This document shows positions 1,412 to 35,818 of a DNA stretch of 64,000 nucleotides, one piece after another. The notes beneath the pieces are model-generated. The model was not told the origin of the DNA and did not search any database. It was given only the letters and a program-made list of their open reading frames with translations. The stretch spans positions 122,653-186,652 of the forward strand of contig CAKSDZ010000002.1 in assembly GCA_934446365.1 (NCBI GenBank), read 5' to 3'. The stretch comes from an uncultured Eubacteriales bacterium. GTDB taxonomy: Bacteria > Bacillota > Clostridia > Oscillospirales > CAG-272. Position 1 is the stretch's first letter, and each line of letters begins with the position of its first letter. Made by a program: the position numbers and the translations under genes.

Positions 1412-1652
1412 TTCAATCTTCCTTTCCGGCGGATATTCCAGTTTCCGCACGCCCGCCGACTCTTCGGTGCGGACCCTCTTGATTCAAGCATAAATTCCAT
1501 CAATTTATGATAGCTATGGAGAATTATAGCACAAAAAAAAGGAAATTGCAATAGGTTTCGATAATTTTTACACATTTTCTGCCGCCGATTTTTCCGAGAT
1601 CAAAAGCGCGGCTCCTCTCCAAGACAGAGACAGCAAATCAAAAGCTGCGCCT

Positions 1653-3811: not shown

Positions 3812-4063
3812 CAGCAATATCTCCTTATATGCGATTTCAGCTCCCTTTCAATATCTTCTCCGAAAACGGCACAATCCCTTTCAGCTAACGAAAACAATGT
3901 AAAAGCTTTTATATTTTCTGCTTAGCATCTGTTGGCCGCAATGTTTGAATACGGTACCAAGATTTATGTAGAAAACCATCATACTTTCATCCCATTATGG
4001 CAATAGCGCATTTTATATTTTCACCATTTCCATACATAAGGAGAATTTTCGGTTGCCATGCTT

Positions 4064-4717
4064 TTATATGATGGCTTTTGTAATCCTATACAATTCCTCC
4101 GAGTTAGCTGCCACATAGGCAGCGCCCGCTTTTTTGAGGACATCCTCGCTGCGGTACCCCCAAGAAACGCCGATGGGAAGCATTCCGGCGTTTTTCGCCG
4201 TCATCATATCGACGTCGGAATCCCCGACAAATGCCACCTCCTCCGGTTTCACGCCGAAATCCCGTGCGATCATAAAGGCACGGGCAGGGTCCGGCTTTAC
4301 CGGCACGCCTTCCACCGTTCCCCATATCGCGTCGAACGCGCCCGGAAAAAGTGTCTCGGTCATCTCGCCGACATGCTCGTTGTCCTTATTGGACATGACG
4401 GCAAGCCGGATGCCGTCCGCCCGAAGTCTTGCCAAAAGGCCGGCAACGCCCTCATACGGCGCCGTTTTGTCGAGATAATATTTGGCGTATGCGGCAAAAT
4501 AAGCCTCCACGGCCTCGTCCATACGCGCCTCGTCAAAATCGTCCGGCAGGCAAAGCCGGATAAACCGCACCGTCGCGTTGTTCACCGCGTGCAGGACTTC
4601 CTTTTCCGTAATCGGCTCATATCCGAAATGCGCGCGCATCAGGTTCAGCGAGGTACACAGGTCCGGCAGCGTATTGGCCAGCGTTCCGTCAAAATCAAAA
4701 ATTGCCGCTTTTATCAT
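4064..4717 (-). CDS. HAD-superfamily hydrolase, paralog 2 (tandem duplicate)
   Basis: MIKAAIFDFDGTLANTLPDL ... GDSDVDMMTAKNAGMLPIGVSWGYR. Collinear with the 3164-3811 product. ATG at 4717. Confidence 0.85.
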   Translation of the reverse strand: MIKAAIFDFDGTLANTLPDLCTSLNLMRAHFGYEPITEKEVLHAVNNATVRFIRLCLPDDFDEARMDEAVEAYFAAYAKYYLDKTAPYEGVAGLLARLRADGIRLAVMSNKDNEHVGEMTETLFPGAFDAIWGTVEGVPVKPDPARAFMIARDFGVKPEEVAFVGDSDVDMMTAKNAGMLPIGVSWGYRSEDVLKKAGAAYVAANSEELYRITKAII

Positions 4718-4913: not shown

Positions 4914-5576
4914 ATGGCAGAAGCAAAAACCTATTTCGCGGAATTTCCGGCGCTTTCGGACAGCGCCGCCATCGAGAATAGAATCCATGAAGTGTCAGAA
5001 GCGCGCCGGGAGCGCATCCGGACGGCCAAAAGACCGGAAACCCAAGCATCTCTGCTCGCGGCCGGCCTGATTCTCAACGCGGTCATGAAAAAGGAATTTG
5101 GGCTGTCGGAGTTCAAAATCGAAATCGGAGAGCACGGAAAGCCGTATCTTGCCGACCACAGGGAGATTCATTTCAACCTTTCCCACAGCGCGGCGGTCGT
5201 CGCATGCACCGTCTCCGATGTGGAATGCGGCGTCGATGTCGAAAAAATCGAGGCTTCGCACAACATGATGGGCATCGCCAACCGGTTCTTTTCCCTGCCC
5301 GAATATAACGCGATGCTGCTGTCGCAGAATCCGAAAGAGGCATTCTGCCGGCTGTGGACGCTGCGGGAAAGCTATGTCAAAATGCGCGGAATGGGCTTCG
5401 ATATCGGACTTTCCACGCTCCGCTGCGATTTCCACCGCGGCGTATGCTCGATTTACCAAGACGGAATTTTGCAGACCGACGCATTTTTCCATGAGTTCCG
5501 CAACATTTACGGCTATCGCGGCGCAGTATGCACCGCGAAGGAAGCCACACATGAAATCAGCCGGATTGAAATTTGA
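4914..5576 (+). CDS. 4'-phosphopantetheinyl transferase (Sfp type)
   Basis: GKPYL...FNLSHS...GVDVEKI...WTLRESYVKMRGMG motifs. ATG at 4914 follows GGGAGG. Confidence 0.8.
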   Translation: MAEAKTYFAEFPALSDSAAIENRIHEVSEARRERIRTAKRPETQASLLAAGLILNAVMKKEFGLSEFKIEIGEHGKPYLADHREIHFNLSHSAAVVACTVSDVECGVDVEKIEASHNMMGIANRFFSLPEYNAMLLSQNPKEAFCRLWTLRESYVKMRGMGFDIGLSTLRCDFHRGVCSIYQDGILQTDAFFHEFRNIYGYRGAVCTAKEATHEISRIEI

Positions 5577-6453: not shown

Positions 6454-7869
6454 ATGCTCACTTATATCTTGGAAAAAAAGAAAGGCGAGGCGCTTTATCG
6501 CTCGCTGTATCAGAAAATAAAGGAGGATATCGTCTCCGGCAGGCTCCGCTCCGGCGAAAAGCTGCCCTCAAAGCGAGCAATGGCGGAGCATCTCGGCGTC
6601 AGCTGCATCACGGTCGAAAACGCATACGAACAGCTCATTGCCGAAGGATATCTCCGTCCCGCGCAAAGAAAAGGATATTTTGTCGAGGAAATCCTGCCGT
6701 ATCCGCATCCGGCGGCAAAGCCGGTGCGGCATCTGCCGGAGGGCTGCGAAAAGCCGTCGGAAAGCTCCGATGTTCCGGTCGAGCTGGACCTTGCGGACAC
6801 CTCGGCAGACCCCGCCCGCTTCCCTTTCTCCATATGGATCAAGCTTTTGCGGCGGGTAACGCTCGACTGCCAAAAGGCGCTTTTGCGTCCGGTTCCGTAC
6901 AACGGGATTCCGGAGCTGCGGGAGGTCATCGCGGAGGATATCCGCCGCTCCCGCGGCATCGAAGCCTCGCCGGAACAAATCGTGCTGGGCGCCGGCACGG
7001 AATCCCTCTACAATTTATTGCTTCTCTTTTTCGGAAAGGAGAAGCGGTACGCGATCGAGAACCCCGGTTATCCGAAAATCCGAAAAATCTATCGGGCGGC
7101 AGGCGCGGATATCCGCGGAATTCCGCTCGACGATTCCGGCGTGAGCTTGGAAGCGCTGAACGAATCGGATGCCGATATCCTGCATATCTCGCCTTCCCAT
7201 CATTTTCCGACCGGAATCGTCATGCCCGCAAAACGGCGGCATGAGCTTTACGGCTGGGCGATGGAAAAGAAAGAGCGCTATATCATAGAGGACGATTATG
7301 ATTCCGAATTCGGATATTATGCGAAGCCCATTCCCGCGATACGAAGCATCGACCGCTCGGGGAAAATTCTCTATATGAATACCTTCACCAAAACGCTCGC
7401 GCCGTCCCTCCGTATCAGCTATATGGTGCTGCCGGAGGAAATCGCGAAAGCCTTTCGGGAAAAGCTCGGCTTCTTTTCCTGTCCGGTGCCGAGCTTTGAA
7501 CAATATACCCTCGCTTCTTTTATCGCGGAGGGCTATTTCGACCGACACATCAGCCGCATGCGCAAATATTACAGAGAGGTTCGCAGGCTTTTGACGGACG
7601 GACTTGGCGGCGCCGTTTCCTCAGGGAAAATTCAAATACGCGGAAAGGATTCCGGTCTGCATTTTCTCATGACGGTCGATACCACGCGTTCCGACGCGGA
7701 GCTATGCCGCCTCTTTCGAGGGCATGGCGTCAAAATCCGGGCGCTTTCGGAATTTATGTTCGAGAAAAAAAGCGATACGCACACGCTTCTTGTCAACGAT
7801 TCGTCTCTTTCGCCGGAGAGTGCCGCGGGAGCGGCGAAAAAAATTCTCGAATGCCTTTCCGACTGCTGA
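6454..7869 (+). CDS. MocR/PdxR-type regulator (GntR HTH fused to an aminotransferase-like PLP domain)
   Basis: N-terminus: YRSLYQKIKEDIVSGRLRSGEKLPSKRAMAEHLGVSCITVENAYEQLIAEGYL. This is followed by a ~350-aa fold-type I aminotransferase-like domain. Confidence 0.9.
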   Translation: MLTYILEKKKGEALYRSLYQKIKEDIVSGRLRSGEKLPSKRAMAEHLGVSCITVENAYEQLIAEGYLRPAQRKGYFVEEILPYPHPAAKPVRHLPEGCEKPSESSDVPVELDLADTSADPARFPFSIWIKLLRRVTLDCQKALLRPVPYNGIPELREVIAEDIRRSRGIEASPEQIVLGAGTESLYNLLLLFFGKEKRYAIENPGYPKIRKIYRAAGADIRGIPLDDSGVSLEALNESDADILHISPSHHFPTGIVMPAKRRHELYGWAMEKKERYIIEDDYDSEFGYYAKPIPAIRSIDRSGKILYMNTFTKTLAPSLRISYMVLPEEIAKAFREKLGFFSCPVPSFEQYTLASFIAEGYFDRHISRMRKYYREVRRLLTDGLGGAVSSGKIQIRGKDSGLHFLMTVDTTRSDAELCRLFRGHGVKIRALSEFMFEKKSDTHTLLVNDSSLSPESAAGAAKKILECLSDC

Positions 7870-13390: not shown

Positions 13391-15046
<1,656 letters not shown>

Positions 15047-15065
15047 TAAGCCTGAAATCAAAAAT

Positions 15066-15098
15066 CGCACCGGAAACTCCGGTGCGGTTTTCTTTTTT
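15066..15098 (+). terminator. groEL intrinsic terminator
   Basis: CGCACCGGA-aac-TCCGGTGCG followed by TTTTCTTTTTT. Confidence 0.9.
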
Positions 15099-15890
15099 CT
15101 CCTTTGAAAAGGAGAAGATACGTGCTTTTCTCACTGAGGAGAAAAGCACCAAAAGACTCACCGAGACGCTGTCTCGGACTCTCAATCTTCTGCTGGGAAG
15201 CGCATACCTACGGCTCCCAACAGTTGTTTGCTCTCGCTTCGCTCGGCAAGCCAACATTCGCCGTGCGGGAAGTTTGTGCGACTGGGAAGCTCGCGTCCGC
15301 AGGCGCAAGGCTTTCGGAGCGCACTCGCTGCCCGTTCGGCGTGTTCCGCCGTGGCTTGCGTACCTCTGTGGTACGCAAACACGTGCCGGGAGCCGACGGG
15401 ATATACTCTCGGATTGCACCAACGGTCAAGCCGAAGGCTTGCAGTTCTTTTGATGCTTTTCTTTCTGTAAAGAAAAGCATGCGTTCTCTCCTTTGCAAAG
15501 GAGAAGATATGTGCTTTTCTCACTGAGGAGAAAAGCACCAAAAGACTCACCGAGACGCTGTCTCGGACTCTCATTCTTCTGCTGGGAAGCGCATACCCAC
15601 GGCTCGAAAGGTGTTGCAGTGCTCGCACAGGCCACCACTCCCCGTGCGGCAAGCAACTGCGACTGGGAAGTTTGCGCCCGCAGGCGCAAGGCTTTCGGAG
15701 CGCACTCGCTGCCCGTTCGGCGTGTTCCGCCGTGGCTTGCGTACCCTCTGTGGTACGCAAACTGGGAGCCGACGGGATATACTCTCGGATTGCACCAACG
15801 GTCAAGCCGGAGGCTTGCGGCTTCTTTTCGTCCTTTTCTTGTCCGCACAAGAAAAGAACATGTTTCTCTCCTTTGAAAAAGGAGAAAGAA
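15097..15890. repeat. Tandem array of a ~390-bp hairpin-dense repeat (unit A 15097-15484, unit B 15485-15863, terminal partial hairpin 15864-15890)
   Basis: The units align along their length. The same family recurs at 33545-34345. Reading frames are not conserved between units. Confidence 0.9.
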
Positions 15891-15895
15891 AAACA

Positions 15896-15934
15896 GCAGG
15901 AACACACTTGCAGTGCTCCTGCCGTTTTATTTTT
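15896..15934 (-). terminator. Bidirectional terminator (rpsR side)
   Basis: GCAGGA..CACTtgcAGTG..TCCTGC hairpin with T runs on both strands. Confidence 0.65.
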
Positions 15935-15943
15935 ACAATCGTA

Positions 15944-16195
15944 TCAATCACTGATAAAGGGAAGCAGCGCAACGTGACGCGCTCTTTTGATCGCTTCCGT
16001 CAGCTCTCTCTGATGCTTCGCGCAAGTGCCTGTCACTCTGCGGGGCAGAATCTTCGAGCGCTCCGAAATGAACTTGCGCAGTCTTGCGACATCCTTATAA
16101 TCGATCTTCTCGACCTTTTCCGCGCAGAATACGCAGACTTTCTTTCTTCTGCGATTTCCGCCGTTCGGGCGAGCCGGTCTCTGTTCTCTATCCAT
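15944..16195 (-). CDS. rpsR: 30S ribosomal protein S18
   Basis: [49 protein letters not shown]. Confidence 0.97.
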
Positions 16196-16240
16196 TGTGA
16201 TGAAACCTCCTATTCCGTAATATTGTGAATCCAATTCCGC

Positions 16241-16672
16241 TTAAAACGGCAGATCATCGTCCCCCGCGATCTCCTCAAACTTCGGAGTCTCGGCGCCTCC
16301 CGCCGTAAATACGGGAGCCTGATAATCATCGCTTCGTGCGGAATCGTTCTTACGCTCCACGAAGCTGGCCTCATCGGCCACCACCTCGGTAGCATAACGC
16401 TTGGAACCGTCGTTCGCAGTCCAGCTTCTTGTTTGAAGGGAGCCGCAGATACAGATTGCACTGCCCTTTCTGAAATATTTCGCAATGAATTCAGCTGTGC
16501 TTCTCCATGCGACAATATTGATGAAATCGCTTTGCGGCTGTTCTCCGGATTTCGTATATCGGCGGCTTACTCCTATCGAAAAGGAACAAACGCTGACGCC
16601 GCTCGGCGTCTGTTTGAGTTCCGGATCCGCGGTCATATGACCGATCAGAATCACCTTGTTAAGACTTGCCAT
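16241..16672 (-). CDS. ssb: Single-stranded DNA-binding protein
   Basis: MASLNKVILIGHMTADPELKQTPSGVSVCSFSIGVSR... and the acidic tail DDDLPF. Confidence 0.97.
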   Translation of the reverse strand: MASLNKVILIGHMTADPELKQTPSGVSVCSFSIGVSRRYTKSGEQPQSDFINIVAWRSTAEFIAKYFRKGSAICICGSLQTRSWTANDGSKRYATEVVADEASFVERKNDSARSDDYQAPVFTAGGAETPKFEEIAGDDDLPF

Positions 16673-16691
16673 TCCAATACCTCCCCACAAA

Positions 16692-16982
16692 TCAAGCTCG
16701 GATTGTCATCGAGCGCATAACACCCTCTGTGATGTTGAAGATACGTTCAAGCTCCGCGACAAAGCTCGGTTCCGCTTTATAATTGACAAGGACATAATAG
16801 CCCTCTGTCAAATCATTGATCGGATACGCAAGCTTGCGTTTGCCCCACTCATTGAAAGCTTCAATGGTGCCGTTCTCCTCGATCAGGCTCTTAAACTTAT
16901 TCACAAGAGCGGCTGTGGCCTCTTCCGTGCCCGTGGAATCCACGATATACATCGTTTCATAGGATACGAGATTCTTTTCCAT
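16692..16982 (-). CDS. rpsF: 30S ribosomal protein S6
   Basis: MEKNLVSYETMYIVD...WGKRKLAYPI. ATG at 16982 follows AAAGGAGG. Confidence 0.95.
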   Translation of the reverse strand: MEKNLVSYETMYIVDSTGTEEATAALVNKFKSLIEENGTIEAFNEWGKRKLAYPINDLTEGYYVLVNYKAEPSFVAELERIFNITEGVMRSMTIRA

Positions 16983-17073
16983 CTGATTTGCACCTCCTTT
17001 TGGACATAAGGCCGCGGACAGCAAAAATTTATCCGCAGCAAGGAGAAAAAACTCAAATAAGTTCTTTTCCATC
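16983..17073 (-). promoter_or_regulatory. rpsF 5' leader (possible S6:S18 autoregulatory leader)
   Basis: ~90-nt UTR between the consensus promoter and the RBS, containing a CTGCGGA...TCCGCGG hairpin. Identity with the known rpsF leader family was not verified. Confidence 0.35.
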
Positions 17074-32666: not shown

Positions 32667-33509
32667 ATGCAAAAAAGAGTTTTGGCCGTTCACGATATCT
32701 CCTGCGTCGGGAAGTGCTCGCTGACCGTAGCGCTGCCGATTATCTCCGCCGCGGGAATCGAAACCTCCGTCCTCCCCACGGCGGTGCTTTCTACGCACAC
32801 GGGCGGCTTCGAGGGCTACACTTTCCGTGATCTGACGGAGGATATCCGTCCCATTTCCGCCCACTGGAAATCCTTAAACTTGAAAATGGACGCCGTTTAT
32901 ACCGGTTATCTCGGCTCATTCGAGCAGCTCACACTGGTAAGCGAGCTGATCCGTGATTTCCGCAGACCGGATACCGTTGTGCTTGTCGATCCCGTTATGG
33001 CGGACAACGGAAAGCTGTATCCGCTTTTCACGATGGATTTCGTGGCGGGAATGAGAAAGCTCTGCGGCATCGCGGATATTATCGTTCCGAATCTGACGGA
33101 GGCCGCACTCATGCTTGGTGAGGAATACCGAGAAAGCTATGACCGCGCCTATATCGAGGCGACACTGAAAAAGCTCGCGGCAATCGGACCCCGCAAGGTC
33201 GTGCTCAGCGGCGTATCCTTTGAGCCGGATAAGCTCGGTGCCGCGTCATACGACAGCGCGACGGACACGATATCTTATTATTTTGCCGAACGGGTAGACG
33301 GTTATTATCACGGAACGGGCGATGTGTTCGGAAGCGCACTTCTCGCCGCCGTCATGAACGGATTCTCTCTTGCGGATTCCATCCGCGTGGCGGTGGAATA
33401 CACGGTCGGCGCGATCCGGCGCACAAAAGCCGCCGGTACCGATATCCGCTATGGTGTGGATTTTGAAAATGAAATTCCGAATCTTCTGCGCTTACTGGGA
33501 AAGCTTTGA
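32667..33509 (+). CDS. pdxK: Pyridoxal/pyridoxamine kinase
   Basis: MQKRVLAVHDISCVGKCSLTVALPIISAAGIETSVLPTAVLSTHTGGF...DPVMADNGKLY...GTGDVFGS. ATG at 32667. Confidence 0.88.
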   Translation: MQKRVLAVHDISCVGKCSLTVALPIISAAGIETSVLPTAVLSTHTGGFEGYTFRDLTEDIRPISAHWKSLNLKMDAVYTGYLGSFEQLTLVSELIRDFRRPDTVVLVDPVMADNGKLYPLFTMDFVAGMRKLCGIADIIVPNLTEAALMLGEEYRESYDRAYIEATLKKLAAIGPRKVVLSGVSFEPDKLGAASYDSATDTISYYFAERVDGYYHGTGDVFGSALLAAVMNGFSLADSIRVAVEYTVGAIRRTKAAGTDIRYGVDFENEIPNLLRLLGKL

Positions 33510-33518
33510 AAAGAAAAA

Positions 33519-33546
33519 TTCCGCCATATAGGCGGATTTTTCTTTT
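33519..33546 (+). terminator. pdxK intrinsic terminator
   Basis: TCCGCC-atata-GGCGGA followed by TTTTTCTTTT. Confidence 0.85.
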
Positions 33547-34345
33547 CTCCTTTCCAAAGGAGAAAGATATGTGCTTTTCTCACTGAGGAGAAAAGCACCA
33601 AAAGACTCACCGAGACGATGTCTCGGACTCTCATCGTGCTACTGGGAAACACATACACACGGCTCCCAACAGTTGTTTGCTCTCGCTTCGCTCGGCAAGC
33701 CAACATTCGCCGTGCGGAGAGCATCTGCCACTGGAAACCCGCGCCCGCAGGCGTAAGGCTACCGGATTGCACTCGCTGCCCGTTCGGCGTGTTCCGCCGT
33801 GGATTGCACGAGTTTACCGAGTGCAAACACGTGTCGGGAGCCGACGGAATACATTTTCGGCCCGCACTAACGGTCAAGCCGCAGGCTTGCAGTTCTTTTG
33901 ATGCTTTTCTTTCTGCAAAGAAAAGCATGCGGTTTCTCCTTTCCAAAGGAGAAGATGTGTGCTTTTCTCACTGAGGAGAAAAGCACCAAAAGACTCATCG
34001 AGACGCTGTCTCGGACTCTCATCGTGCTGCTGGGAAGCGCATACACACGGCTCCCAACAGTTGTTTGCTCTCGCTTCGCTCGGCAAGCCAACATTCGCCG
34101 TGCAGAAATTTTGTGCCACTGGAAAGCTCGCGCCCGCAGGCGCAAGGCTGCCGGATTGCACTCGCTGCCCGTTCGGCGTGTTCCGCCGTGGATTGCACGA
34201 GTTTACCGAGTGCAAACACGTGTCGGGAGCCGACGGAATACATTTTCGGCCCGCACTAACGGCCAAGCCGAAGGCTTGCAGTTCTTTTGATGCTTTTCTT
34301 TCTGCAAAGAAAAGCATGCGGTTTCTCCTTTCCAAAGGAAAAAGA
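33545..34345. repeat. Second tandem array of the ~390-bp repeat family (unit C 33545-33933, unit D 33934-34322, terminal partial hairpin 34323-34345)
   Basis: Collinear with 15097-15890, in the same orientation and with the same three-hairpin junctions. Confidence 0.9.
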
Positions 34346-34375
34346 AAAAGCATGCTATCGCATGCTTTTTCTTTT
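34343..34375 (-). terminator. Bidirectional terminator after the 34376-35818 gene
   Basis: AAAAAGCATGC-tatc-GCATGCTTTTT with flanking A/T runs. Confidence 0.8.
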
Positions 34376-35818
34376 TTATTCCGCCACAATGTAATTCGCG
34401 TAAGGTCCCCAGAAATAGTTCGTAACAAAATTCGCATACGATTCCTCCGGAACATAGAAGCGGCTTCTTTCGGGAAGCCCTTCCCTTGCGCCGCCCGACA
34501 CATTGTTGACCGTGCATTTATCCGGATCCACCGCTAAAATATGGATTTTTTCAAGGCTCTCCGCCCCGCGGAACGTGCCGTCCGGAATCTGACCGATGTT
34601 ATCCGTCACAAAAAGCTCCGCGAGTGTCCCACAGCCGGCAAAGGTATCGGCGGTAAACGCCACAACCTTCTTTCCGTCGTAAGCCACAGGTGTCCTGAGC
34701 GTCGTCTGCGTTTTGCCAAGCTCCGTGACGCCGGTGATATATACGCCGAAATCCGTCACGTTATAAGTGAAGTAGACCTCGTTTTCATCGTACTCATACA
34801 CGTCCGGCTCATCCGGATTATCCGGGATCTCCGGTTCGTCCGGCACCTCGATGTCCACCGTGATCTCTCCCATCTTAGCGGCAAGATCGATCGCGAGCTG
34901 CCTTGTATGCAGAACCGCGCCCGCGCTGTTGGTATGGAAATTGCTGTCGAAGAAATAGCCGGAGCGATAAAGATATTCATTCGGATCGCCGAGCACCTCA
35001 CAGTCGAACCGCTCGGAAAGGAAATCGGTAAACGCTTCGAGCGTTTCCAGCGTCGTGTCGGGATCGATCGCCATCTCGTTCATCGGACAAAAGCCGAGAT
35101 AGACCGTTGCGCCCTTTTTCTGCGCATATTTCACATAATCATTGACATAGTCGATGAAATCCTCCGAAATCATCTCCAAATTAAAATCGATAATCATGCC
35201 GGAATCATATCCGCCTGCCATGGTGTTGTAGTCCTTTGTCCGATTATACCGGATAAAGCCGTAATCGTCAAACGACGAGGCGTTATAGATGCCGTCGGGG
35301 TCCAAAACCGTCCCCTCCCGCATATATTGCAGCTTTGAGGAGGCAAACCGCCAAAAACCGCCGAGCATCGCGGGAATATCGTCGGAATCAAGATACCGGA
35401 GAAGCGAAAAATGTCCGTCCACCGCCTGCCACATCGCCTCCGCATTGAAGTAGAGCGACCATGTCTGCGCGTTCATTTCCGGCGCAATGACGATGATATC
35501 TCCCTCGCCAATGCCAGATTTGGAATAGTCGAGCATCGTTTTTGTGCCGAGCGTGGCATACAAACCGAAGTTGACGACCGGCATACCGAGCGTTTTCTCC
35601 AAAAGCTCGGCATCGACACCGAATGCGGCGGAGCTGCCGCCAATCACAATGATTTTTGCTCCGTCCGTATTCCGGAGCCGCTCCACCTTGTCGTCAAATT
35701 CGCCGAGAAACGTCCTTTCAAACTGTGTCGGCGTAAAAAATCCGGAAGCCAGTACCGCGACAAGCGGCAAAAGCAGCAGAAGCACGATTAAGAGAAATCG
35801 AATCCATGATTTTTTCAT
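34376..35818 (-). CDS. Membrane-anchored SGNH/DltD-like domain protein with C-terminal BspA-type leucine-rich repeats
   Basis: N-terminal TM MKKSWIRFLLIVLLLLLPLVAVLA. Also IIVIGGSSAAFG...GEGDIIVIAPE...YFFDSNFHTNSAG. C-terminal VVAFTADTFAGCGTLAELFVTDNIGQIPDGTFRGAESLEKIHI. Confidence 0.7.
   Translation of the reverse strand: MKKSWIRFLLIVLLLLLPLVAVLASGFFTPTQFERTFLGEFDDKVERLRNTDGAKIIVIGGSSAAFGVDAELLEKTLGMPVVNFGLYATLGTKTMLDYSKSGIGEGDIIVIAPEMNAQTWSLYFNAEAMWQAVDGHFSLLRYLDSDDIPAMLGGFWRFASSKLQYMREGTVLDPDGIYNASSFDDYGFIRYNRTKDYNTMAGGYDSGMIIDFNLEMISEDFIDYVNDYVKYAQKKGATVYLGFCPMNEMAIDPDTTLETLEAFTDFLSERFDCEVLGDPNEYLYRSGYFFDSNFHTNSAGAVLHTRQLAIDLAAKMGEITVDIEVPDEPEIPDNPDEPDVYEYDENEVYFTYNVTDFGVYITGVTELGKTQTTLRTPVAYDGKKVVAFTADTFAGCGTLAELFVTDNIGQIPDGTFRGAESLEKIHILAVDPDKCTVNNVSGGAREGLPERSRFYVPEESYANFVTNYFWGPYANYIVAE

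What the first reader, a model, noticed from the sequence alone, without database searches (positions are those of the whole stretch)
15097..15890. Tandem pair of a ~390-bp hairpin-dense repeat wedged exactly between the groEL and rpsR terminators
- Two head-to-tail units (15097-15484 and 15485-15863) plus a terminal partial hairpin fill the whole gap between two convergent intrinsic terminators.
- Each unit is a chain of perfect or near-perfect hairpins: CTCCTTTgaaaAGGAG, GCTTTTCTCactgagGAGAAAAGC, GAGACgctGTCTC, GCG(T/C)CcgcaGGCGC, TTGCGTACCtctgtGGTACGCAA, CAAGCCgaaGGCTTG and GCTTTTCTTTctgtAAAGAAAAGC.
- A long-range complement also exists: CGGCTCCC (15211-15218) with GGGAGCCG (15388-15395).
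- The long ORFs in the track across this region are in different frames in the two units, so it is not coding.
- I see no sigma-A-like promoter inside. The array is insulated by terminators on both sides.
- I cannot match it from memory to any named ncRNA or repeat family.
- Candidate explanations: a new MITE-like element family, a large structured ncRNA, or a DNA-level structural or recombination element.
Basis: seen in the sequence. Interest (0 to 1): 0.8.

Follow-up and report, generated by a model that had tools for sequence, protein, structure and literature searches.

The report
Mosaic hairpin repeat arrays between genes
The tandem pair is real. It belongs to an apparently unnamed family of non-coding, hairpin-rich DNA repeats of about 400 bp, found in arrays of variable length between genes of an uncultured human-gut Clostridiales bacterium; it behaves like the palindromic intergenic repeats known from other bacteria (REP/BIME, BOX, ERIC, MITEs), not like an RNA gene.

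Summary
Two head-to-tail units (15097-15484 and 15485-15863, 88% identical) plus a terminal hairpin fill the gap between the groEL and rpsR terminators.

- **Copies.** A second tandem pair lies at 33545-34346. Related arrays of 0.5 to 4 units occupy at least 7 intergenic sites in this and sister lineages, and one lies in a phage-like contig.
- **Anatomy.** Each unit is a chain of short hairpins joined by conserved linkers. The hairpins occur as discrete, fully compensated alternative versions that are shuffled between units. Units of one type are end-to-end quasi-palindromes.
- **Variation.** Strains with identical flanks carry 1, 2, 3 or 4 units, or different unit types, at the same site. Arrays mark rearrangement and deletion breakpoints.
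- **Against an RNA gene.** Both strands fold equally well. Orientation relative to neighbouring genes is mixed. No promoter was found inside. The long-range closing helix shows no covariation. Half-units exist. Rfam gives no match.
- **Negative results.** No coding signal, no transposase in the window, no target-site duplication and no clean empty site.

Best reading: a new family of DNA-level, recombination-prone mosaic palindromic repeats. How it spreads is unknown.

The parts
15061..15099 (+). groEL intrinsic terminator (hairpin AAAATCGCACCGGAaacTCCGGTGCGGTTTT plus T run). Its T run merges into the first junction hairpin of the array.
   Evidence: 14-pair stem, T tail; sequence
15097..15484 (+). 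Repeat unit 1 (type a: modules P, H1, H2, V1a, central hairpin, V2a, 3' hairpin, last hairpin)
15099..15114 (.). Junction hairpin P (CTCCTTTgaaaAGGAG; one arm all pyrimidine, the other all purine). It recurs at 15488-15503 and 15868-15884 and bounds every unit.
   Evidence: 5 matches in the window, 0 expected by chance
15122..15149 (.). Hairpin H1, GTGCTTTTCTCactgagGAGAAAAGCAC. Alternative compensated versions elsewhere are GTCG..CGAC, GTCC..GGAC and GTAC..GTAC.
   Evidence: columns 30/54: GC 14, CG 9, AU 5, none unpaired
15161..15177 (.). Hairpin H2, CCGAGACgctGTCTCGG. The alternative version TTGAGGC..GCCTCAA carries three compensated pairs.
15217..15262 (.). Variable module V1, an extension on the stem CACGGC/GCCGTG. 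It has at least 3 alternative versions plus a minimal GGAACA-loop form in L062. This is where units 1 and 2 differ most.
15293..15306 (.). Central hairpin GCGTCcgcaGGCGC, the symmetry centre of the quasi-palindromic unit. Some truncated arrays in relatives end a few to about 30 nt from it.
15321..15354 (.). Core of module V2a (GCACTCGCTGCCCGTTCGGCGTGTTCCGCCGTGG), invariant in the 4 window copies and nearly so in relatives. It contains the small hairpin CGGCGtgttcCGCCG.
15356..15378 (.). Hairpin TTGCGTACCtctgtGGTACGCAA. The compensated alternative in array B is TTGCAC..GTGCAA.
   Evidence: columns 451/465 and 452/464
15427..15441 (.). 3' hairpin CAAGCCgaaGGCTTG followed by a T-rich tract, which makes it terminator-like on the + strand. 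Alternatives are CAAGCG..CGCTTG and CGAACG..CGTTCG.
   Evidence: 100% paired; 3 of 6 pairs changed on both sides
15453..15480 (.). Last hairpin ATGCTTTTCTTTctgtAAAGAAAAGCAT
   Evidence: (I10)
15485..15863 (+). Repeat unit 2 (V1b version, different last hairpin)
15864..15890 (.). Terminal junction hairpin P plus an A-rich run that closes the array
15890..15928 (-). rpsR intrinsic terminator
   Evidence: 16-pair stem
33545..34346 (+). Second tandem pair of the same family (units 33545-33931 and 33934-34320, plus a terminal P). It is also wedged between the terminators of two convergent genes.

Best explanation
This is a non-coding, DNA-level repeat family. Each unit of about 390-430 bp is a mosaic of short palindromic (hairpin) modules joined by conserved linkers. 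Units sit head to tail and share a pyrimidine/purine junction hairpin.

**Shown here**
1. The family is dispersed over at least 7 intergenic sites in this gut Clostridiales lineage and its relatives. One copy lies in a phage-like contig.
2. Arrays grow and shrink by unequal homologous crossing-over.
3. Modules and whole units are exchanged between loci. The same site holds different unit types in strains with identical flanks.
4. Arrays are breakpoints for chromosomal rearrangements and deletions.
5. The individual hairpins, but not the long-range pairing of the unit ends, are kept by compensatory changes. Both strands are equally foldable.

**Inferred**
- The selected property is local hairpin or cruciform formation in DNA, or in RNA made from either strand.
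- The hairpins may be needed for spread, for example by a hairpin-recognising single-strand DNA transposase of the REP/RAYT or IS200/IS605 kind. Alternatively, templated repair within palindromes may maintain them.
- The family persists because sites between terminators are harmless landing places.
- Any benefit to the host is secondary and unproven. One possibility is back-up termination in both directions, from the outward-facing terminator-like hairpins at both ends of each unit.
For: **Family and dispersal**
- There are 4 copies in the window.
- L001 lies in a GTDB genome, L002 in a viral contig, and there are 9 metagenome stretches.
- 76 spurious-ORF clusters were found, more than half on contigs shorter than 2 kb, as expected of assembly-breaking repeats.
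- New sites: L042, L043, L048, L062, L063 and L065.

**Copy-number change and exchange**
- The rpsR-groEL gap holds 1, 2 or 3 units, or divergent units, in strains with an identical RpsR protein.
- The single unit of L012 is the 5' part of unit 1 joined to the 3' part of unit 2.
- Locus B holds 2 type-a units in the window but 4 type-b units in a 2.2-Mb genome.

**Breakpoints**
- L015: guaA replaces groEL beside the array.
- L023 is a recombinant of locus B and the pyrG/glmS locus, joined just after the central hairpin.
- L043: a P-loop gene is cut to 16 codons and the array to 1.5 units. The gene is intact beside 3 units in L065.

**Hairpin covariation (28 distinct units)**
- 93.7% of cells are paired, against 86.3 +/- 0.5 for shuffles and 35-52% for slid controls.
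- 88 cells changed on both sides, against 31.9 +/- 4 (0 of 500 shuffles reach this).

**No strand preference**
- Consensus folding energy is -187 on the plus strand and -188 on the minus strand.
- The minus strand is the more stable in 5 of 7 units.
- Among co-directional gene pairs the element is sense in 2 and antisense in 3.

**Other**
- The closing helix does not covary.
- No promoter was found inside the arrays.
- There is no Rfam match.
- There is no codon periodicity.
- In L062 a near-consensus promoter reads into the array, which separates it from its gene. This looks like an insertion.
Against: - **No proof of transposition.** No clean empty site was found. Sister species with 96% and 91% identical GroEL lack the element downstream of groEL, but their gene order also differs. 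There is no target-site duplication. No parent insertion sequence or transposase was found in the window or by BLAST against plasmids and phages.
- **Modest copy number.** At least 7 sites were seen across contigs of this and closely related lineages, far below classic REPs.
- **Some sites look old.** A remnant lies next to the rpsR terminator in the species with 91% identical GroEL. This fits long vertical residence as well as mobility.
- **The hairpin modules do not spread alone.** None occurs outside arrays in the window, unlike REPs.
- **A weak plus-strand signal remains.** On helices predicted on both strands there are 47 G-U against 24 A-C cells when read on the + strand, so an RNA role is not excluded.
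- **Constraint on sequence.** Strongly conserved linkers and a near-invariant 22-34-nt core argue for sequence-specific recognition by a partner that was not identified.
Confidence: 0.55

Rival explanations
1. A cis-acting transcription element that the host has taken over. The arrays would act on transcripts that enter them, as back-up terminators or insulators in both directions between convergent genes, or as 3'-end hairpins that stabilise mRNA. REP/BIME and ERIC elements do this in enterobacteria.
For: - Both window arrays sit between convergent genes.
- Each unit carries a terminator-like hairpin with a T-rich tail near its 3' end on the + strand, and a mirror one near its 5' end on the - strand.
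- Terminator-like sites are enriched: 12, 14 and 18 found against about 2-3 expected.
- In L065 the array starts 5 nt after the stop codon of an intact gene, with no other terminator.
- In the phage-like contig it abuts the stop codon of the tail-fibre gene.
Against: - In the window the arrays lie beyond strong canonical terminators on both sides, so little transcription should reach them.
- In L062 a three-unit array sits between a promoter and its gene, where termination would be harmful.
- Copy number and unit type vary freely between strains at one site, which argues against a tuned function.
- A single short hairpin would do the job. About 400 bp of conserved mosaic is not explained.
Confidence: 0.17
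2. A multi-copy gene family for a large structured non-coding RNA of about 390 nt, rod-like with side hairpins and modular expansion segments, encoded as tandem multimers.
For: - The fold is extreme, z = -11.
- 22 of 101 consensus pairs have compensatory changes.
- Hairpin covariation is far above the controls.
- Unpaired linkers are conserved and there is a near-invariant core.
- V1 behaves like an expansion segment on a conserved stem.
- Shared helices show G-U over A-C at 2 to 1 when read on the + strand.
Against: - There is no Rfam match even at E = 10.
- No promoter precedes or lies inside the arrays, and there is no consistent terminator.
- The minus strand folds as well or better.
- Orientation relative to neighbours is mixed.
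- The closing helix of the rod does not covary, and 5'/3' versions are mismatched in about half of the units (and alleles read).
- Type-b units are not rod-like.
- Half-units and truncated arrays persist.
- Unit number varies from 1 to 4 at one locus.
Confidence: 0.13
3. [quoted passage not shown] Tandem copies would arise from repeated insertion into the junction hairpin.
For: - The unit ends are inverted repeats: 35 nt at 83% and 17 nt at 94% complementary.
- Size is below 500 bp.
- The family is dispersed and intergenic.
- One copy lies in a phage-like contig.
- One array separates a promoter from its gene.
- In 3 of about 6 arrays the two outermost junction hairpins share a loop sequence that differs from the inner ones. 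This could be a duplicated target.
Against: - No direct target-site duplication flanks the arrays. The flanks are inverted (T-rich on the left, A-rich on the right).
- No related insertion sequence or transposase was found.
- No empty site was found.
- Array ends often fall at or near palindrome centres, or within a unit, instead of at fixed termini.
- The left and right end versions are unlinked.
Confidence: 0.1

Closest known systems
REP / BIME (bacterial interspersed mosaic elements) of enterobacteria and pseudomonads (PMC2817692, PMC3333891)
   Same: - Both are extragenic and often lie after genes or between convergent genes.
- Both are built from short palindromic units in mirrored orientation, joined by conserved linker motifs, with discrete unit types combined as a mosaic.
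- Both form tandem clusters whose length varies between strains.
- Both are hotspots of rearrangement.
   Different: - The repeated entity here is a composite of about 400 bp holding 6-9 different hairpins, not a 20-40-nt palindrome.
- Its hairpins are not found alone.
- Copy number is about ten sites, not hundreds.
- No RAYT (Y1 transposase) was found, and a GTAG/CGTC tag was not looked for.
- The host is a Gram-positive-type Clostridiales bacterium.
- There is no sequence similarity.
BOX elements of Streptococcus pneumoniae (modular boxA-boxB(n)-boxC; from my own knowledge)
   Same: - Both occur in Firmicutes and are non-coding and modular.
- In both the two ends are complementary, so the element folds into a long stem-loop.
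- In both an internal module varies in number.
- Both are intergenic and have no known transposase of their own.
   Different: - BOX elements are 100-300 bp with three module kinds. Here there are many more modules, each with alternative compensated versions.
- Here whole units are repeated in tandem and share a junction hairpin.
- The sequences are unrelated.
ERIC / IRU and related long imperfect palindromes (e.g. Yersinia YPAL; from my own knowledge)
   Same: - In both the whole element is an imperfect palindrome.
- In both, optional internal insertions occur at fixed positions.
- Both lie in intergenic DNA that may be transcribed.
   Different: - ERIC is 127 bp, occurs singly, and is enterobacterial.
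- Here only type-a units are global palindromes, and the units form arrays.
bcr1-bcr18 interspersed repeats of the Bacillus cereus group (discussed in PMC3184786)
   Same: - Both are Firmicutes repeat families of 100-400 bp.
- Some bcr families have conserved secondary structure supported by compensatory changes and an unclear function (RNA or DNA).
   Different: - bcr1-3 show target-site duplications and MITE behaviour, which was not seen here.
- The bcr repeats are not reported as tandem arrays with shared junction hairpins.
- The sequences are unrelated.
Viroid-like rod RNAs and retrozymes (PMC5680766; Obelisks, 10.1101/2024.01.20.576352)
   Same: - The unit size of about 390 nt falls in the viroid range.
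- Type-a units have a rod-like fold.
- The head-to-tail multimer arrangement resembles DNA copies of such elements.
   Different: - No self-cleaving ribozyme was found.
- There is no evidence of RNA or of circles.
- The rod-closing pairs do not covary.
- The copies are chromosomal, sit at fixed intergenic sites, and include half-units.

Membership tests
Any Rfam RNA family (including OLE, GOLLD, ROOL, HEARO, raiA, group I/II introns and small ribozymes) | Covariance-model match at or near the family's gathering score | tested here: not met
   In permissive E-value mode on window 14000-17000 and on 6 variant loci, nothing inside the element comes near threshold. The best match is a plant microRNA model at 25 bits against a threshold of 171.
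MITE | Terminal inverted repeats | tested here: met
   15097-15131 against 15471-15505 (35 nt, 83% complementary) and 15140-15156 against 15446-15462 (17 nt, 94%). However, the 5' and 3' end versions are unlinked across units.
MITE | Direct target-site duplication flanking the element | tested here: not met
   The flanks are inverted (T-rich on the left, A-rich on the right). No direct repeat was seen at 8 array ends read.
MITE | Filled and empty orthologous sites | tested here: inconclusive
   All same-species contigs carry an array at both loci. Sister species lack it downstream of groEL, but gene order differs. In L062 the array separates a promoter from its gene, which suggests an insertion.
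MITE | A related autonomous element that encodes a transposase | tested here: not met
   No blastn match in the plasmid or phage collections. No transposase or recombinase domain in 40 window ORFs. Whole genomes could not be searched.
REP / BIME | Short palindromic units in alternating orientation with conserved linkers, combined as a mosaic | tested here: met
   Type-a units align with their own reverse complement. Discrete hairpin versions are combined freely. The linkers are conserved.
REP / BIME | Very high copy number (over 100 per genome), with single palindromic units also dispersed alone | tested here: not met
   At least 7 array sites were seen. No solo hairpin occurs in the 64-kb window. 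One solo hairpin and one remnant were seen in a sister species.
REP / BIME | An associated RAYT (Y1 HUH transposase) flanked by the repeats | not testable with these tools
   None in the window. The rest of the genome could not be scanned.
Structured ncRNA gene | Strand-specific structure conservation, own promoter and terminator, consistent orientation | tested here: not met
   Both strands give equal consensus folding energy. The minus strand is the more stable in 5 of 7 units. No promoter was found. Orientation is mixed. The closing helix does not covary.
Viroid-like element / retrozyme | Self-cleaving ribozyme and circular RNA | tested here: not met
   No hammerhead, twister, HDV-like, hairpin, pistol or hatchet match. 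Circular RNA cannot be tested here.
Protein-coding repeat | Conserved reading frame, three-base periodicity of variation | tested here: not met
   Period-3 power is 15 against a shuffle mean of 111. Indels between units are 1, 3, 6 and 8 nt.

The most novel reading that the evidence does not exclude
The units could be genes, or DNA templates, for a new class of large modular hairpin-chain RNA of about 390 nt. This RNA would be transcribed as multimers and processed to unit length, a chromosomal, viroid-sized rod-like RNA element of gut Clostridiales.

Alternatively, the hairpin chain could be the single-strand DNA substrate of an unrecognised hairpin-specific nuclease or transposase. That would make it a 'giant REPIN' system in Gram-positive bacteria.

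Either reading would explain three things:
- the perfectly compensated hairpin versions
- the near-invariant 22-34-nt core
- the conserved linkers
Probability: 0.1. Interest if true: 0.8.

Novelty: new member of a known kind. Interest (0 to 1): 0.4.

Why it matters
- **Assembly and annotation.** The arrays break metagenome assemblies; more than half of the related spurious ORFs sit on contigs shorter than 2 kb. They also produce false gene calls of 150-380 aa in public catalogues. Naming and masking the family would improve annotation of a common, uncultured gut Clostridiales lineage.
- **Strain typing and genome change.** Array length and content differ between strains with identical flanks, which gives a natural strain-typing marker. 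Breakpoints at the arrays show that they drive rearrangements and gene loss in this lineage.
- **Repeat biology.** It extends the REP/BIME/BOX type of mosaic palindromic repeat to gut Clostridia. The unit is unusually large and ordered, and the compensation within hairpins is unusually clean, so it is a good system for asking what keeps such hairpins intact.

Tried and rejected
Direct alignment showed the repeat.
2. **Rfam**, in permissive mode on the window region and on variant loci, gave only chance-level hits. The ctRNA_pGA1 and psbA matches are the flanking terminators.
3. **Group II intron (class C, terminator-targeting).** I considered this because GAGCCG...CGGTC recalls domain V. There is no Rfam intron hit and the unit is too small, so I rejected it.
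4. **Coding or mini-ORF.** The junction hairpin provides AAAGGAG followed by ATG or GTG. The start codon and frame are not conserved and there is no codon periodicity, so I rejected it.
5. **Strand assignment by G-U against A-C counts** was inconclusive. There is a weak + bias on shared helices, equal consensus energies, and the minus strand is often the more stable.
6. **Long-range closing stem**: not supported. Part of that result reflects MAFFT misregister in the last hairpin. Reading the versions by eye gives 11 matched and 15 mismatched units.
7. **Empty-site search** through GroEL homologues of sister species and through a CmpB homologue. No clean empty site turned up. I found instead a remnant beside rpsR and an intact neighbouring gene.
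8. **Whether the phage copy splits a tail-fibre gene**: relatives are too distant (about 40% identity) to tell.
9. **BLAST against plasmid and phage collections** and two further viral pattern scans found nothing.
10. **Pfam scan of 40 window ORFs** for a transposase or recombinase: none. Some of the ORFs I scanned are probably spurious antisense frames.
11. **Intrastrand triplex motif idea** (PMC4666352). The pyrimidine/purine hairpin arms prompted it. I read only that paper's abstract and outline and did not pursue it.
Full report
**1.

The stretch 15097-15890 lies between the stop codon of groEL (13415-15046, +) and that of rpsR (15944-16234, -).
- The two units align at 88% identity, with differences concentrated in one patch and at the 3' hairpin.
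- Repeat finding gives three long direct-repeat families at spacings of 389, 381 and 376 nt, plus many inverted repeats.
- Terminator-like hairpins flank the array exactly, and no sigma-70-like promoter lies inside.
- One unit folds at -192.8 kcal/mol against -138 +/- 5 for shuffles (z = -11). The opposite strand gives z = -8.

- A second tandem pair of the same family lies at 33545-34346, again between two convergent terminators.
- The unit aligns end to end with its own reverse complement (275 of 439 columns; score 182 against -63 +/- 19). The central hairpin (15293-15306) and the junction hairpin P are therefore two symmetry centres.

**2. It matches no described RNA and does not code.**
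- Rfam in permissive mode finds nothing in the element, either in the window or in six variant loci.
- Units differ by indels of 1, 3, 6 and 8 nt, and variation has no three-base periodicity.

**3. It is a dispersed family.**
- Exact-pattern scans found one GTDB genome (a Eubacteriales MAG, L001, again a tandem pair). They also found one viral contig (L002) and nine metagenome stretches.
- I used the spurious 241-aa ORF that gene callers place across the array as a protein query. It returned 76 clusters, more than half on contigs shorter than 2 kb, the signature of an assembly-breaking repeat.
- Following these, and neighbouring proteins, gave at least seven distinct sites in this and sister lineages:

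| Site | Units seen |
|---|---|
| groEL/rpsR | 1 to 3 |
| pdxK-like locus B | 2 or 4 |
| guaA | joined to the rpsR array |
| ABC transporter / AAA_18 | 1.5 or 3 |
| pyrG/glmS | right half + P + left half |
| hydrolase/htpG | 3 |
| DUF2238/BcrAD | 3 |

- L002 really is phage-like, with tail-fibre, endolysin and holin-like genes. There the element sits antisense between two tail genes. No other viral contig carries it.
- Plasmid and phage collections have no similar DNA.

**4. Anatomy.**

Aligning 25-28 distinct units shows a fixed order of modules:
1. P, the junction hairpin
2. H1
3. the linker CAAAAGA
4. H2
5. the linker ..CTGGGAAGCGCATACCCACGGCTC
6. V1
7. CGCCGTGCGG..CTGGRAAGC
8. the central hairpin
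9. V2
10. GCACMAACGGTC
11. the 3' hairpin
12. TCTTTTG and the last hairpin
13. P again

- Each hairpin exists in a few discrete versions that are perfectly complementary. Examples are GTGC..GCAC / GTCG..CGAC / GTCC..GGAC and CCGAGAC..GTCTCGG / TTGAGGC..GCCTCAA. A third is CAAGCC..GGCTTG / CAAGCG..CGCTTG / CGAACG..CGTTCG. The versions are combined freely.
- V1 is an extension of variable content on the stem CACGGC/GCCGTG. Its minimal form in L062 is the mirror image of the right-arm core.
- V2 has two unrelated versions. Units with V2b are much less palindromic overall.
- An AT-rich module of about 95 nt is optionally present. It sits at several positions in the left arm, or reversed in the right arm.
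- The hairpins never occur outside arrays in the window.

**5. Which pairs are conserved.**
- On 28 distinct units, five local hairpins (H1, H2, the central hairpin, the 3' hairpin and the last hairpin) are 93.7% paired. Shuffles give 86.3 +/- 0.5%, and controls with the partner slid by 1-3 columns give 35-52%.
- 88 cells changed on both sides, against 31.9 +/- 4 (0 of 500 shuffles reach this). Covariation score is 0.26 against 0.125.
- H1, H2, the central hairpin and the 3' hairpin are 98-100% paired. The last hairpin is only 74.6% paired, partly because MAFFT misregisters that region.
- RNAalifold on 13 type-a units gives 101 pairs, 22 of them with compensatory changes.
- The 17-bp helix that would close the unit into a rod is not supported: 67.6% paired against 66.6% for shuffles. 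Reading the alignment, its 5' and 3' versions are matched in only 11 of 26 units.

**6. No strand is preferred.**
- Consensus folding energy is -187 on the plus strand and -188 on the minus strand.
- Single-unit folds favour the minus strand in 5 of 7 cases.
- Helices predicted on both strands show 47 G-U against 24 A-C cells when read on the + strand. This is a weak bias that related sequences could produce.
- The element is sense to co-directional neighbours at two sites and antisense at three. It also occurs between convergent genes and between divergent genes.
- No promoter-like site lies inside any array.

**7. It behaves as recombining DNA.**
- Contigs that encode the identical RpsR protein and have near-identical flanks hold one unit (L012), two units (L013, the same as the window) or two quite different units (L014/L016, L017). 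One (L015) holds three units followed by guaA instead of groEL.
- The single unit of L012 is exactly the 5' part of unit 1 joined to the 3' part of unit 2. This is what a crossover in their shared 47-nt identical stretch would produce.
- Locus B has two type-a units in the window and four type-b units in a 2.2-Mb genome.
- L023 joins locus B to the pyrG/glmS locus just after the central hairpin.
- In L043 a P-loop gene is reduced to 16 codons and fused to a half unit. The gene is intact beside a three-unit array in L065.
- Arrays may start or end at or near P, at or near the central hairpin, or inside a unit.

**8. Mobility is suggested but not proven.**
- Sister species (GroEL 96% and 91% identical) have short gaps of 144 and 225 nt without the element downstream of groEL. 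Their neighbouring genes also differ.
- The 91% species has a solo hairpin of the family right after the groEL stop codon. It also has a remnant of about 120 nt beside the rpsR terminator, so that site is old.
- In L062 a near-consensus promoter (TTGAAA, 18-nt spacer, TATAAT) points into the array. The next start codon lies 55 nt beyond the array, which looks like an insertion between a promoter and its gene.
- I found no target-site duplication and no parent insertion sequence. No transposase or recombinase domain appeared in 40 window ORFs.
- Between the L043 and L065 lineages, four-fold degenerate sites are about 80% identical and the elements about 80-88%. Conservation of the element is therefore not clearly above neutral.

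**9. Conclusion.**

The finding is a real and, as far as these libraries show, unnamed family. In kind it is closest to the mosaic palindromic intergenic repeats of other bacteria: REP/BIME, BOX, ERIC and the B. cereus bcr repeats.

It differs from them in four ways:
- its large ordered unit
- its tandem arrays with a shared junction hairpin
- the clean compensation of its hairpin versions
- its modest copy number

I place most weight on a DNA-level, recombination-prone repeat whose local hairpins are the selected feature. A host cis-acting role in termination, an RNA gene and a classical MITE get less weight. The enzyme or process that spreads it is unknown. Transcription data and whole-genome censuses would settle the matter.

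Noticed in passing
window 33545-34346: A second tandem pair of the same repeat family (86-88% identical to unit 1). It has the same orientation and is also wedged between two convergent terminators (pdxK-like gene and a 480-aa gene).
   Followed up: yes
L002 6680-7180 (= L050 1981-2484), IMGVR_UViG_3300045988_165406: One copy of the element sits in a phage-like contig, antisense between a 371-aa tail-fibre gene and a 145-aa gene. The C-terminal domain of that 145-aa gene is, in related phages, the end of a single longer tail-fibre protein. The element may therefore have split a tail-fibre gene, but relatives are too distant (about 40% identity) to tell.
   Followed up: partly
L004 about 1960-2055; L011 about 1545-1640 (-); L002 about 6925-7020 (-); L014 about 4435-4530 (-); L062 about 5140-5235 (-); L063 about 3830-3930 (-): An optional AT-rich module of about 95 nt occurs at different positions in the left arm of units, or reversed in the right arm. 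It has a conserved ATCTATACCC(A/T)TT motif and a terminal hairpin followed by GGGCAAC. It looks like a smaller element nested in the larger one. No promoter consensus was found in it.
   Followed up: partly
L034/L037/L040, first 30 nt after the groEL stop; L040 5479-5594: The species with 91% identical GroEL lacks the array. It has a solo hairpin GCTTTTCTTTggaaAAAGAAAAGC right after the groEL stop codon. It also has a remnant of about 120 nt (3' hairpin, last hairpin and a P-like hairpin) beside the rpsR terminator.
   Followed up: partly
L043 3025-3075 compared with L065 2856-3353: A P-loop (AAA_18) gene is intact (165 aa) in one lineage. In the other it is cut after 16 codons (MKRLILVGGTMGVGKT) and fused to a half unit, which gives a 208-aa chimeric ORF called as a gene in 23 contigs.
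   Followed up: yes
L062 5349-5397: Back-to-back near-consensus promoters: TTGACA, 17-nt spacer, TATAAT towards htpG, and TTGAAA, 18-nt spacer, TATAAT towards the array. A 1.3-kb three-unit array lies between the second promoter and the hydrolase gene it presumably served.
   Followed up: partly
window 15182-15907 (-), 33449-33946 (-), 33874-34503 (-), and public catalogues (P0121-P0196): Gene callers place ORFs of 150-380 aa across the arrays. These spurious 'proteins' form at least 76 clusters in the public protein collection, with no Pfam domain.
   Followed up: yes
window 15097-15116, 15122-15149, 15446-15505 and equivalents: The junction hairpin, H1 and the last hairpin all have one arm made only of pyrimidines and the other only of purines (for example TTTTCTTTTCTCCTTT / AAAGGAGAAAGAAAA), with further pyrimidine tracts next to them. 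Such tracts could in principle form triplex (H-DNA-like) structures.
   Followed up: no
L011 2895-3042 (-): A sub-threshold match to the ribosomal protein L20 leader (43.6 bits, threshold 58.7, E = 1.7e-5). It lies upstream of the gene whose terminator precedes the single-copy element in that locus, and is unrelated to the element.
   Followed up: no
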